A DNA stretch of 64,000 nt, from positions 382,422 through 446,421 of the forward strand of contig JAXLXR010000002.1 of NCBI GenBank assembly GCA_046327815.1, written 5' to 3'. Within the stretch, counting starts at the first letter, position 1. Each line of letters begins with the position of its first letter. Source of the stretch: Candidatus Eiseniibacteriota bacterium (GTDB lineage: Bacteria > Eisenbacteria > RBG-16-71-46). Positions 32,259 through 33,763 of the stretch are shown piece by piece. The notes under the pieces are model-generated. The model searched no databases, had not been told where the DNA came from, and worked only from the letters and a program-made list of their open reading frames with translations. Made by a program: the position numbers and the translations under genes.

Positions 32259-33209
32259 CTAGAACTCCTCGGCGTGCATGTGCGTGCCCGGCGACGACAT
32301 GTCGCGGGTCTGGTTCGCCACGTCCGTGATGCGGTCGGCGATTTCGCCGGTCGCGCGGACCTGCTCGTCGAGCGAACCGAGGATGTTCGTCGCGGTCGCG
32401 TCCACGTTCTTCACCGACTCGCCGATCTGCGTCACCGCCAGCGCGGCGTGCTCCGTGGCGGCCAGCATCTCCTCGACCGTCTTCACGATGTCCTGGGTGG
32501 CCTTCGCGGTGTCCTGCGAGAGCACCTTGACCTCGTTCGCGACGACCGCGAAACCGGCGCCGTGCACGCCCGCGCGCGCGGCTTCGATCGTGGCGTTCAG
32601 CGCGAGCAGGTTCGTGTGACGCGCGATCCGCGCGATGAGCCCGACCACCGACTCGATCCGGCGGGCGGCGTCGCCGAGCCGCGCGATCGCTTCGGCCGAA
32701 CGATTCGATTCGTCCACGGCGCTGTGCGTCATGTCCACGGCCTGACCGAGGTGCGACTTGATCTCGGTGGTCGTGGCGTTGAGCTCCTCGCACGCGGCGG
32801 CCACGGCGTTCGTGGCGTTGGCCACCTCGGCGGCCACGCGGCTGCGCTCGGCTTCGAACGACCGCAGGCTGGAGGCGTCTTCCTTCATCTTGTACGCGGC
32901 CTTGTTGATCACGATCGCACTGTCGCGGTACGAGCCCATCATGCCGCGCGTCAGGATCGGGCGGTGGAACAGGCCGTGGCTGCAGTGGTCCATGGCCGCG
33001 GCCGACTCGCGCACGTAGGCGTCCGCGATGTCGAGCAGCGCGTTGATCGCCGTGCCCACGCGGTGTGCGTCGCCGCTCTCGGGAATGCCGAGCACGCGGG
33101 ATTCGAGGTCGCCGTTCGCGGCGCGCTCGCACGCGTCCGCCACGTGGCGGAAGAACTCCGCGTCGCTCTTGTGCATGGCCGACGGGGCCGGCTTCGACAG
33201 CAGGCTCAT
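32259..33209 (-). CDS. soluble methyl-accepting chemotaxis protein (MCP signalling domain only; no TM or HAMP)
   Basis: Highly conserved MCP hairpin tip ([43 protein letters not shown]). 316 aa with no hydrophobic segments. Confidence 0.85.
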   Translation of the reverse strand: [316 protein letters not shown]

Positions 33210-33763
33210 GCGATGCTCCTTTCGAGCCGCGTGTGCTCGGACAGGCTGAACACGAACTCGGCGTACGACTGGCCCTTCTGCTGCAGCAGGCCGGTCACCA
33301 TGCCCATCGAGGCCGACATGCCCTCGTGCAGGTTCGAGTGGCGACGTTCCTCGGCCACGAGACCGGCGTAGAGGTCCTTCACCTTGGGCAGGGCGTCGGG
33401 GTAGGGCACGCGGCGGTTCGAGTGGTAGCCGACGCAGCGTCCGTTCTTGTCGAAGCTCGGGGTCACGTGCGCGAACACCCAGTACTCGTCGCCGTTGCGG
33501 GCCTGGTTCAACACGTACGCGAAGATCTCCCGCCCGTCCTGCAGGGTGTCCCAGAGCAGCTTGAACACGCAGCTCGGCATCCCCGGATGGCGGATCAGGT
33601 TGTGCGGCTGTCCCATGAGCTCGGCCTCGGTGTAGCCCGAGACCCGCTGGAACACGTGGTTCGCGTAGGTGATGTGGCCCTTCAGGTCGGTCTTGCTGAC
33701 GATGAGTTCGTCCTGGCCGAACGTCACCTCGCGACCAGAGAGCGGAACGGTCTGCTTGCGCAT
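33206..33763 (-). CDS. Aer-type PAS domain protein (FAD-binding aerotaxis-sensor-like), soluble
   Basis: ELIVSKTDLKGHITYANHVFQRVSGYTEAELMGQPHNLIRHPGMP closely matches the Aer N-terminal PAS. The stop overlaps the MCP gene start by 4 bp. Confidence 0.8.
   Translation of the reverse strand: MRKQTVPLSGREVTFGQDELIVSKTDLKGHITYANHVFQRVSGYTEAELMGQPHNLIRHPGMPSCVFKLLWDTLQDGREIFAYVLNQARNGDEYWVFAHVTPSFDKNGRCVGYHSNRRVPYPDALPKVKDLYAGLVAEERRHSNLHEGMSASMGMVTGLLQQKGQSYAEFVFSLSEHTRLERSIA

What the first reader, a model, noticed from the sequence alone, without database searches (positions are those of the whole stretch)
32259..33763. Split, fully soluble Aer-type aerotaxis receptor (PAS protein translationally coupled to an MCP signalling-domain protein)
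The upstream 185-aa protein carries an Aer-like FAD-PAS domain (DLKGHITYANHVFQRVSGYTEAELMGQPHNLIRHPGMP). Its stop overlaps the ATG of a 316-aa protein by 4 bp. That second protein consists only of an MCP cytoplasmic signalling domain (tip [34 protein letters not shown]). Neither protein has transmembrane segments or HAMP. Canonical Aer is a single membrane-anchored PAS-TM-HAMP-MCP polypeptide. Here the sensor and signalling modules are separate soluble proteins, which implies a non-covalent PAS-MCP complex. No che genes are in this window.
Basis: partly seen in the sequence, partly recalled or inferred. Interest (0 to 1): 0.6.

Follow-up and report, generated by a model that had tools for sequence, protein, structure and literature searches.

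The report
Soluble two-protein CetB/CetA-type redox chemoreceptor
Two overlapping genes encode a small flavin-type PAS sensor and a membrane-free HAMP-containing chemoreceptor, a soluble variant of the already known two-protein "CetA/CetB" energy-taxis receptors, so the split itself is not new.

Summary
Both ORFs are real. They lie on the minus strand (33763-33206 and 33209-32259), share an ATGA overlap, have their own Shine-Dalgarno sites and show GC3 of 93-95%.

The 185-aa protein is an Aer-type FAD-PAS. It matches the E. coli Aer PAS structure 8DIK at E=5e-29, and its AF2 model superposes at 1.0 A. It carries all eight FAD-pocket residues defined for Magnetospirillum CetB2, at the same positions.

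Residues 16-110 are a di-HAMP unit. A short signalling hairpin (about 13 heptads per arm) with methylation-type motifs follows.

Split Aer-like receptors are already known as the CetA/CetB bipartite energy-taxis family. Magnetospirillum cetBA loci have the same PAS-first, overlapping gene order.

In 76 of the 80 best-matching genome loci with this PAS, a homologous di-HAMP MCP gene follows immediately. Thirty-three partners (Alphaproteobacteria or unclassified Proteobacteria) have a CetA-like TM hairpin. Forty-three (Verrucomicrobiota, Planctomycetota, Acidobacteriota, Eisenbacteria and others) have none.

The window therefore holds a TM-less member of this family. It is not a frameshift artefact. 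I found no description of the soluble form, but it is a predictable variation. Interest is moderate to low.

The parts
33206..33763 (-). cetB-like gene: 185-aa stand-alone Aer-type (FAD) PAS protein
   Evidence: ORF and translation. Pfam PAS_3 1.2e-12. E. coli Aer PAS 8dik 5.3e-29 and full-length Aer 31cj 5.9e-28. 100% identical to NCBI MFN8586893.1 from a Candidatus Eisenbacteria MAG.
33410..33733 (-). PAS core (residues 11-118) with the FAD-pocket residues H54, N55, R58, F67, W71, N86, V100, R117
   Evidence: AF2 pLDDT 92.8. Foldseek top hit 8dik, rmsd 1.0 A, 43% identity, followed by the FAD-PAS domains of NifL and MmoS. The eight residues are those listed for CetB2 in PMC12442639 section 2.5. 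Seven are invariant and V100 is at least 90% conserved in alignment A2.
33245..33391 (-). C-terminal helical extension of the PAS protein (helices 125-140, 145-163, 167-173). Conserved motifs are PDALPKV..LY and Y.EFVFSLS.HT.L. Residues up to 156 align to the stretch of full-length Aer that follows its PAS core.
   Evidence: AF2 secondary structure. Conservation in A2. The alignment to full-length Aer 31cj runs to query residue 156.
33768..33774 (-). Shine-Dalgarno GGAGGAG, 4 nt upstream of the PAS ATG
   Evidence: Read directly from the sequence.
33206..33209 (-). ATGA stop/start overlap (translational coupling)
   Evidence: The same -4 overlap recurs in many related loci.
33216..33221 (-). 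Shine-Dalgarno AAGGAG for the MCP gene, inside the 3' end of the PAS gene
32259..33209 (-). cetA-like gene without TM hairpin: 316-aa soluble di-HAMP methyl-accepting chemotaxis protein
   Evidence: ORF and translation. MCPsignal 9.9e-27. No TM segment. AF2 pLDDT 89.5.
32880..33164 (-). di-HAMP unit (residues 16-110). HAMP1: AS1 16-31, connector 32-46, AS2 from 47. HAMP2: AS1 up to 77, connector 78-92, AS2 from 93. Motifs GDLESR, INALLD, DAYVRE and [14 protein letters not shown].
   Evidence: Profile A1 against PDB: 9trk 4.7e-11 over positions 4-108, 3vol 1.5e-4, 2y0q 0.023. 25/32 members hit Pfam HAMP and 9/32 hit HAMP_2. AF2 helices H16-31, H47-77 and H93 onward. The profile also matches the repeat units of giant poly-HAMP kinases.
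32295..32879 (-). Signalling hairpin (residues 111-305), about 13 heptads per arm
   Evidence: AF2 H93-212 and H214-305. Tm14 3g67 superposes at rmsd 1.9-2.9 A over 198 columns. Sequence hits to Tm14, Tsr and Aer signalling domains.
32568..32585 (-). Hairpin tip EAARAG (E209-G214), within the kinase-control region [28 protein letters not shown]
   Evidence: Invariant columns in A3.
32775..32798 (-). Methylation-consensus-like motif AACEELNA (residues 138-145), N-arm
   Evidence: Position. A137, C140 and L143 are invariant. The match to the [ASTG]xx[EQ][EQ]xx[ASTG] consensus is my own reading, and that consensus is recalled from memory.
32352..32375 (-). Methylation-consensus-like motif SLDEQVRA (residues 279-286), C-arm
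   Evidence: Position. E282 and Q283 are nearly invariant.

Best explanation
A two-gene, translationally coupled operon encodes a cytoplasmic bipartite redox (energy) sensor of the CetB/CetA type.

Proposed mechanism, all inferred by analogy with Aer, C. jejuni CetAB and Magnetospirillum CetBA2:
1. The 185-aa PAS protein binds FAD non-covalently and reports the cellular redox or oxygen state.
2. Two PAS monomers dock on the N-terminal di-HAMP of a dimer of the 316-aa MCP.
3. FAD-dependent changes in the PAS alter HAMP packing.
4. That change is passed down the short four-helix signalling bundle to the hairpin tip, which controls a CheA-CheW kinase encoded elsewhere in the genome.
5. The conserved EE/EQ motifs allow adaptation by CheR and CheB.

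Shown here: the gene structure, the Aer/CetB2-type FAD pocket, the di-HAMP, the absence of a TM segment, the conserved adjacency with a homologous di-HAMP MCP across phyla, and occasional placement inside che operons.

Unlike every characterised CetA, the transducer has no membrane hairpin. The complex must therefore work in the cytoplasm, or join arrays through receptor-receptor contacts.
For: 1. PAS is Aer-type.
- 8dik 5.3e-29. AF2 model rmsd 1.0 A to 8dik.
- All eight CetB2 FAD-contact residues sit at the same positions (H54, N55, R58, F67, W71, N86, V100, R117). Mutation of F67, W71 or N86 inactivates CetB2 (PMC12442639; alignment).

2. The transducer has a di-HAMP and a complete signalling hairpin.

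3. Conserved pairing.
- Among the 80 best genome loci for this PAS, 76 have a di-HAMP MCP gene starting between -26 and +78 nt of the PAS stop. Many have the same ATGA overlap.
- All three metagenomic homologs looked up show the same pairing.

4. Same family as the membrane-anchored receptors. Partners of about 435 aa with two TM segments in Azospirillum, Bradyrhizobium and Magnetospirillum match the window's di-HAMP at 1e-10 to 1e-23. They fit CetA2 (436 aa, 2 TM) and CetB2 (174 aa).

5. PAS and di-HAMP distances co-vary: Mantel r=0.76, with 0 of 2000 permutations reaching it.

6. Che linkage. The soluble pair ends a cheA-cheW-mcp-cheY-cheB-cheR-cheX operon in an Acidobacteria MAG. che genes lie within 6 kb in 6 distinct loci.
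Against: - No FAD binding, protein-protein contact or behaviour has been measured for any TM-less pair.
- The window (64 kb of a 508-kb contig) has no cheA/W/R/B and no flagellar genes. It is unknown whether this Eisenbacteria organism is motile.
- The position equivalent to Aer D60 (RHPDMP) is Gly here. This position varies (D/A/G/E) across the family.
- Without a membrane anchor, it is unclear how the FAD would be coupled to the electron-transport chain.
- The Mantel correlation is inflated by shared phylogeny.
- The exact 316-aa product is not in the protein collection, so its annotated start may differ.
Confidence: 0.72

Rival explanations
1. The same PAS/di-HAMP-MCP complex forms, but its output is not flagellar aerotaxis. 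It would feed a Che-like pathway that controls type IV pili or another cellular function such as gene expression, c-di-GMP or development.
For: - The window has no flagellar or che genes.
- A PilB/T2SSE ATPase with MshEN and REC domains lies at 46439-48661.
- The signalling hairpin is short, about 13 heptads per arm, against class 38H for CetA2.
- The same di-HAMP module occurs on a GGDEF protein, P0327.
- Most related loci are not next to che genes.
Against: - Where che genes are adjacent, they form a full set (cheA, cheW, cheY, cheB, cheR, cheX).
- The two characterised relatives (C. jejuni CetAB, M. gryphiswaldense CetBA2) act in energy taxis or aerotaxis.
- The pathway class could not be assigned with these tools.
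Confidence: 0.2
2. The split is an artefact: a frameshift or assembly error cut a single Aer-like gene in two.
For: Only the 4-nt overlap, and the fact that the MCP reading frame stays open far upstream (1116-codon ORF).
Against: - The same two-gene arrangement, often with the identical ATGA overlap, is found in 76 of 80 independent genome loci from more than eight phyla, and in all metagenomic contigs inspected.
- PAS homologs are uniformly 181-192 aa.
- MCP homologs start at the same position, with their own RBS.
- No PAS-fused form appears among the top 150 cluster representatives carrying this di-HAMP.
Confidence: 0.01
3. The two proteins act independently. The PAS protein would signal to another partner, for example the nearby hybrid histidine kinase, and the MCP would be a sensor-less array component.
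For: - Elliott et al. 2009 proposed that members of HAMP/PAS pairs can act independently in other traits.
- M. gryphiswaldense has an orphan CetB5 next to a CheY.
- Three of the 80 PAS loci have no MCP within 6 kb.
- A CHASE8-HAMP hybrid kinase lies 3 kb upstream.
Against: - Near-universal adjacency and translational coupling.
- Co-variation of PAS with di-HAMP.
- Single deletions of cetB2 and cetA2 phenocopy each other, and the two proteins interact.
Confidence: 0.05
4. The PAS binds something other than FAD (heme, FMN or no cofactor), so the system senses a different signal, such as O2 directly or a metabolite.
For: - PAS domains bind many ligands.
- The D60-equivalent residue is Gly.
- LOV/FMN domains appear among the lower-ranked structural hits.
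Against: - All eight FAD-contact residues of CetB2 are conserved.
- The best sequence and structure matches are the FAD-PAS domains of Aer, MmoS and NifL.
- No LOV photo-active Cys motif was noticed.
Confidence: 0.06

Closest known systems
Magnetospirillum gryphiswaldense CetB2/CetA2 (Herz et al. 2025, PMC12442639)
   Same: - A small PAS-only protein (174 aa) with the same eight FAD-pocket residues at the same positions.
- PAS gene first, overlapping the MCP gene.
- The MCP has no sensor domain of its own, and Pfam also fails to call a HAMP in CetA2.
- A Magnetospirillum sp. SS-4 locus (L081) has a PAS 60% identical to the window's and a partner whose di-HAMP matches at 9e-12.
   Different: - CetA2 has two TM helices, is 436 aa and belongs to class 38H.
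- The window's transducer has no TM segment, is 316 aa and has about 13 heptads per arm.
- The window PAS has about 10 extra C-terminal residues.
Campylobacter jejuni CetA/CetB bipartite energy-taxis receptor (Hendrixson 2001; Elliott & DiRita 2008, PMC2628428; Elliott et al. 2009)
   Same: The domains of Aer are divided between a PAS-only protein and a HAMP-plus-signalling-domain protein. The genes are adjacent and co-transcribed. A PAS-HAMP interaction is proposed.
   Different: - The gene order is cetA then cetB, 17 bp apart.
[quoted passage not shown]
- I could not compare sequences directly, and the nine conserved residues of the 2009 paper could not be checked because the paper is not held.
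Escherichia coli Aer
   Same: The PAS is the closest solved homolog (43% identity). Both have a FAD pocket, HAMP and an MCP signalling domain. Residues up to 156 of the window PAS protein align beyond the Aer PAS core.
   Different: Aer is one polypeptide with a TM hairpin and a single HAMP.
Pseudomonas aeruginosa / Vibrio Aer2 (soluble PAS/poly-HAMP receptor)
   Same: A soluble MCP with concatenated HAMP domains. The window di-HAMP profile hits Aer2 3vol at 1.5e-4, and NCBIfam shows a weak match to transduc_aer2_vibrio.
   Different: The Aer2 PAS is heme-binding and is inserted in-line between HAMP domains of the same chain.
Azospirillum brasilense AerC
   Same: A soluble FAD-PAS energy-taxis receptor. 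It sets the precedent that FAD-PAS receptors can work without a membrane anchor (review PMC13401364).
   Different: AerC has two PAS domains fused to the MCP. It is a single protein.
Myxococcus xanthus FrzCD
   Same: A cytoplasmic MCP with a di-HAMP that standard domain servers miss (PMC12077210).
   Different: FrzCD has an N-terminal DNA-binding segment and no PAS partner.
Thermotoga maritima Tm14 (PDB 3g67)
   Same: A soluble MCP. It is the best sequence hit (1.5e-18) and its hairpin has nearly the same length (rmsd 1.9-2.9 A over 198 columns).
   Different: Tm14 has no HAMP and no known partner.

Membership tests
CetB/CetA-type bipartite energy-taxis receptor | Stand-alone PAS-only protein (about 165-185 aa) with an Aer-type FAD pocket | tested here: met
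   185 aa. 8dik 5.3e-29. Eight of eight CetB2 FAD residues conserved at the same positions. AF2/Foldseek rmsd 1.0 A to the Aer PAS.
CetB/CetA-type bipartite energy-taxis receptor | Adjacent, co-oriented (often overlapping) gene for an MCP that has no sensor domain of its own | tested here: met
   ATGA overlap. The MCP consists only of di-HAMP plus signalling hairpin. The arrangement is conserved in 76 of 80 genome loci.
CetB/CetA-type bipartite energy-taxis receptor | HAMP domain between the N-terminus and the signalling domain of the transducer | tested here: met
   Profile hits to 9trk (4.7e-11), 3vol and 2y0q. 25 of 32 relatives hit Pfam HAMP. AF2 topology agrees. It is a di-HAMP.
CetB/CetA-type bipartite energy-taxis receptor | Transducer homologous to membrane-anchored CetA-type partners | tested here: met
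   tblastn with the window di-HAMP hits the roughly 435-aa, two-TM partners of Azospirillum, Bradyrhizobium and Magnetospirillum sp. SS-4 at 1e-10 to 1e-23. No direct comparison with C. jejuni CetA was possible.
CetB/CetA-type bipartite energy-taxis receptor | N-terminal transmembrane helical hairpin anchoring the transducer | tested here: not met
   Maximum Kyte-Doolittle 19-residue mean is 1.03, located in the signalling domain. HAMP AS1 starts at residue 16. None of the 120 closest homologs has an N-terminal hydrophobic (TM-like) segment.
CetB/CetA-type bipartite energy-taxis receptor | Nine conserved HAMP and proximal-signalling residues defined by Elliott et al. 2009 | not tested
   The paper is not held. 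The family here does have 18 invariant residues in the di-HAMP.
CetB/CetA-type bipartite energy-taxis receptor | FAD bound; physical PAS-transducer complex; role in energy taxis or aerotaxis | not testable with these tools
   Needs biochemistry and genetics. Shown only for CetB2/CetA2 and C. jejuni CetAB.
Aer (E. coli type) | Single polypeptide PAS-F1-TM hairpin-HAMP-signalling domain | tested here: not met
   Two separate ORFs and no TM segment.
Aer (E. coli type) | FAD-type PAS domain | tested here: met
Aer2 (soluble PAS/poly-HAMP receptor) | Soluble MCP with concatenated HAMP domains | tested here: met
Aer2 (soluble PAS/poly-HAMP receptor) | Heme-binding PAS inserted in-line between HAMP domains of the same chain | tested here: not met
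   The PAS is on a separate protein and is of the FAD type.

The most novel reading that the evidence does not exclude
The TM-less PAS/di-HAMP-MCP pair would be a distinct, so far undescribed cytoplasmic branch of the bipartite energy-taxis receptors.
- It would be the prevalent form outside Alphaproteobacteria and Campylobacterota (Verrucomicrobiota, Planctomycetota, Acidobacteriota, Gemmatimonadota, Myxococcota, Actinoplanes, Eisenbacteria).
- It would sense a diffusible cytoplasmic redox signal rather than the membrane electron-transport chain.
- It includes 'mini' members whose hairpin lacks the methylation helices.
- Because it is fully soluble, it would allow PAS-to-HAMP signalling to be reconstituted in solution.
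Probability: 0.4. Interest if true: 0.5.

Novelty: new variant of a known kind. Interest (0 to 1): 0.35.

Why it matters
If the soluble pair works as inferred, FAD-PAS energy sensing through a separate transducer does not need a membrane anchor. It would also be widespread in phyla whose behaviour is barely studied. A fully soluble PAS plus di-HAMP-MCP pair would be a convenient system for studying how an Aer-type PAS talks to HAMP, with no detergent needed. For annotation, these gene pairs are currently labelled only "PAS domain-containing protein" and "methyl-accepting chemotaxis protein"; they could be recognised as one receptor. The split itself and the mechanism are already established for CetAB/CetBA, so the conceptual gain is modest.

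Tried and rejected
- Pfam and NCBIfam on the single MCP sequence gave no HAMP hit. The HAMP appeared only with a family profile.
- My first regex-based scan for downstream MCP genes missed almost all of them. I replaced it with tblastn.
- Elliott et al. 2009, the paper that defined the 55 HAMP/PAS pairs, is not held. I could not check whether TM-less transducers were already in that set, nor test its nine signature residues.
- Literature searches for a described soluble bipartite form found none. This shows absence only in the held library.
- The look-up of encoding contigs for the window's PAS returned nothing, and the exact MCP product is not in the protein collection. I could therefore not look beyond the 64-kb window for che or flagellar genes of this MAG.
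- The promoter scan found no sigma-70-like site. Terminator-like hits were at chance level: 2 found against 1.0 expected.
- I looked for natural PAS-di-HAMP-MCP fusions among cluster representatives and found none. The longer hits are extra-HAMP MCPs, a GGDEF protein and poly-HAMP kinases.
- A complex prediction (AF-multimer) was not possible with the tool.
- The heptad class could only be estimated (about 26 heptads, Tm14-like), not assigned.
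Full report
**Observation.** On the minus strand, an ORF of 185 codons (33763-33206) is followed by one of 316 codons (33209-32259). The stop of the first overlaps the ATG of the second as ATGA. GGAGGAG lies 4 nt upstream of the first ATG, and AAGGAG lies 6 nt upstream of the second. Third-position GC is 93% and 95% in a window of 71.6% GC, so both are genuine coding regions. Pfam finds PAS_3 (1.2e-12) in the first protein and MCPsignal (9.9e-27, residues 164-306) in the second. 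Neither protein has a hydrophobic stretch compatible with a membrane helix; the maximal 19-residue Kyte-Doolittle means are 0.53 and 1.03. The PAS protein is 100% identical to NCBI MFN8586893.1 from a Candidatus Eisenbacteria MAG, on a contig of 507,945 bp.

**The sensor.** The closest solved relatives of the 185-aa protein are the E. coli Aer PAS domain (8dik, 5.3e-29) and full-length Aer (31cj). The FAD-PAS domains of MmoS and NifL come next. An AlphaFold2 model (pLDDT 92.8) has a PAS core at residues 11-118 followed by three helices at 125-140, 145-163 and 167-173. Its best structural match is 8dik, with rmsd 1.0 A and 43% identity. Herz et al. 2025 showed that Magnetospirillum CetB2 binds FAD. 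They named His54, Asn55, Arg58, Phe67, Trp71, Asn86, Val100 and Arg117 as the pocket, and found that substitutions at F67, W71 and N86 abolish function (PMC12442639). The window protein has the same residues at the same positions. In a 26-sequence family alignment seven are invariant and V100 is at least 90% conserved. The Asp of the Aer RHPDMP motif is Gly here, but this position varies (D/A/G/E) in the family.

**The transducer.**
- The N-terminal 110 residues carry the motifs GDLESR, INALLD, DAYVRE and [14 protein letters not shown]. Eighteen positions there are invariant among 32 relatives.
- A profile of this region matches a poly-HAMP histidine-kinase structure over its whole length (9trk, 4.7e-11, positions 4-108). 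It also matches Aer2 (3vol, 1.5e-4) and the Af1503 HAMP (2y0q, 0.023).
- 25 of the 32 relatives hit Pfam HAMP on their own, and 9 hit HAMP_2.
- Against 1.8 billion cluster representatives, the profile finds 1380 proteins at E<=1e-10. These include giant poly-HAMP kinases in which the unit is repeated 7 to 22 times.
- The AF2 model (pLDDT 89.5) shows helix 16-31, connector, helix 47-77, connector, helix 93-212, turn, helix 214-305. That is two concatenated HAMP units running straight into a hairpin of about 13 heptads per arm.
- The hairpin superposes on the soluble T. maritima receptor Tm14 (3g67, rmsd 1.9-2.9 A over 198 columns).
- Motifs of the methylation-site type lie at residues 138-145 (AACEELNA) and 279-286 (SLDEQVRA) and are conserved.

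**Is the split real, and is the pair a unit?**
- Both proteins have thousands of homologs. None of the 120 best MCP homologs has an N-terminal hydrophobic (TM-like) segment, and nearly all start directly with HAMP AS1. PAS homologs are uniformly about 185 aa.
- Three homologs looked up on long contigs each have the PAS gene directly upstream of the MCP gene.
- A scan of one genome per species found at least 599 PAS relatives. In the 80 best loci, tblastn with the window's di-HAMP and hairpin tip finds a homologous MCP immediately downstream of the PAS gene in 76.
- ORF reconstruction puts these MCP starts between -26 and +78 nt of the PAS stop, often with the identical -4 overlap.
- One locus has the MCP upstream instead, and three have none within 6 kb.
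- PAS and di-HAMP pairwise distances are correlated (Mantel r=0.76, 0 of 2000 permutations). Shared phylogeny contributes to this value.
- A frameshift artefact is therefore excluded in practice.

**Relation to what is known.** Splitting Aer into a PAS protein and a HAMP-MCP protein is an established receptor class. C. jejuni CetB/CetA was the first example (PMC2628428). Fifty-five such pairs were reported in 2009 (cited in PMC2886117). Magnetospirillum gryphiswaldense has four cetBA loci in which cetB precedes and overlaps cetA. For CetB2/CetA2, FAD binding, direct interaction and a role in aerotaxis were shown. All characterised CetA proteins are membrane-anchored by a two-helix hairpin.

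In my census, 33 of the 76 partners have such a hairpin. They are about 435 aa and come from Azospirillum, Bradyrhizobium, Magnetospirillum sp. SS-4, Thalassospira and others, all Alphaproteobacteria or unclassified Proteobacteria. These match CetA2 (436 aa, 2 TM) and CetB2 (174 aa). The other 43 partners have no TM segment. They come from Verrucomicrobiota, Planctomycetota, Acidobacteriota, Gemmatimonadota, Myxococcota, Bdellovibrionota, Actinoplanes and Planobispora, Eisenbacteria, one Gammaproteobacterium and some Alphaproteobacteria. The TM call rests on a simple hydropathy threshold, but the two groups are clearly separated by the length of the segment before the HAMP.

The window's pair is thus a TM-less member of the CetBA family. 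In the held literature I found only membrane-linked bipartite receptors described. The 2009 paper could not be read.

**Mechanism.** By analogy, FAD in the PAS protein reports redox state. Two PAS monomers bind the di-HAMP of the MCP dimer, which is the 1:1 stoichiometry modelled for CetB2-CetA2. The resulting HAMP rearrangement controls a CheA/CheW complex at the hairpin tip, and CheR/CheB adapt the receptor. Support for a chemosensory output comes from related loci. In an Acidobacteria MAG the soluble pair closes a cheA-cheW-mcp-cheY-cheB-cheR-cheX operon, and che genes lie within 6 kb in six distinct loci.

Whether the output is flagellar aerotaxis, pilus-based motility or something else therefore remains open. 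A PilB-like ATPase with MshEN and REC domains lies 13 kb away. How a soluble complex reads the respiratory chain, and whether it forms cytoplasmic arrays or joins membrane arrays, is unknown. Soluble FAD-PAS receptors such as AerC, and di-HAMP cytoplasmic receptors such as FrzCD, are precedents.

**Verdict.** What remains new is the absence of the membrane hairpin and the breadth of this soluble form. I rate it a new variant of a known kind, with moderate-to-low interest.

Noticed in passing
L006 (6588-), L022, L033, L057, L078, L080: 'Mini' partners of the same di-HAMP MCP family, only 233-267 aa, in Eisenbacteria, Planctomycetota and Phycisphaerales. In the four I aligned pairwise with the window protein (L006, L033, L078, L080), they lack about 36-39 residues of the N-arm, including the AAACEEL methylation-type motif, and about 45 residues of the C-arm. 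The remaining hairpin of roughly 120-130 residues is shorter than the standard MCP length classes as I recall them.
   Followed up: partly
MCP homologs P0001-P0120; partners in L001-L085: 39 of 120 soluble MCP homologs and 21 of 83 genome partners end in the dipeptide -AA (for example LAA, RAA, KAA). This resembles ssrA-type C-terminal degradation tags. The window protein ends in HAEEF instead.
   Followed up: no
window 32259-33209 (-), residues C27, C76, C140: There are three conserved cysteines in the transducer family: C27 (HAMP1 AS1) and C76 (HAMP2 AS1) are nearly invariant, and C140 (inside the AAACEEL motif) is invariant. This is notable for a putative redox receptor, but its significance is unknown.
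   Followed up: no
P0327 (528 aa): The same di-HAMP unit (residues 61-159) is joined to a GGDEF diguanylate-cyclase domain instead of an MCP signalling domain. The module may serve other outputs.
   Followed up: no
P0241, P0242, P0243, P0251 and others: The di-HAMP profile scores highest on giant poly-HAMP proteins of 1000-2500 aa. The one scanned, P0241 (2344 aa), is a hybrid histidine kinase with 17 HAMP and 14 HAMP_2 matches. The receptor's N-terminus is thus one repeat unit of such arrays.
   Followed up: partly
P0096 (232-aa fragment, 1.1-kb contig): This ORF joins the C-terminal helices of the PAS protein directly to the MCP signalling domain, skipping the di-HAMP. It could be a deletion, a chimera or a rare fusion.
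   Followed up: no
L084: In one Acidobacteriota MAG the di-HAMP MCP gene lies upstream of the PAS gene. This is the Campylobacter cetA-cetB order rather than PAS-first.
   Followed up: no
window 46439-48661 (+): A 740-aa type II/IV secretion ATPase (T2SSE/PilB-like) carries an N-terminal MshEN domain (c-di-GMP-binding, as I recall) and a C-terminal receiver domain.
   Followed up: no
window 56060-60066 (+): A cluster of signalling genes: a REC-GGDEF protein (56060-57154), a histidine kinase fused to GAF and HD-GYP-type HD_5 domains (57151-59526), and a single-domain response regulator (59668-60066).
   Followed up: no
window 20001-26451 (+): Two proteins of about 1060 aa (six TIG/IPT repeats; an alpha-amylase catalytic domain) both end in a FlgD_ig-like domain. 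This may be a shared C-terminal sorting or cell-surface module rather than anything flagellar.
   Followed up: no
window 35640-36515 (-) and 36575-39544 (-): A 291-aa protein with no Pfam match lies between the M32 carboxypeptidase gene and a CHASE8-HAMP hybrid histidine kinase with two receiver domains, just upstream of the PAS/MCP pair.
   Followed up: no
window 32259-33209 (-): The exact 316-aa MCP product is absent from the 15-billion-protein collection, although the overlapping PAS product is present (MFN8586893.1). The closest entry is 85% identical. The source annotation may use another start or may have missed the gene.
   Followed up: partly
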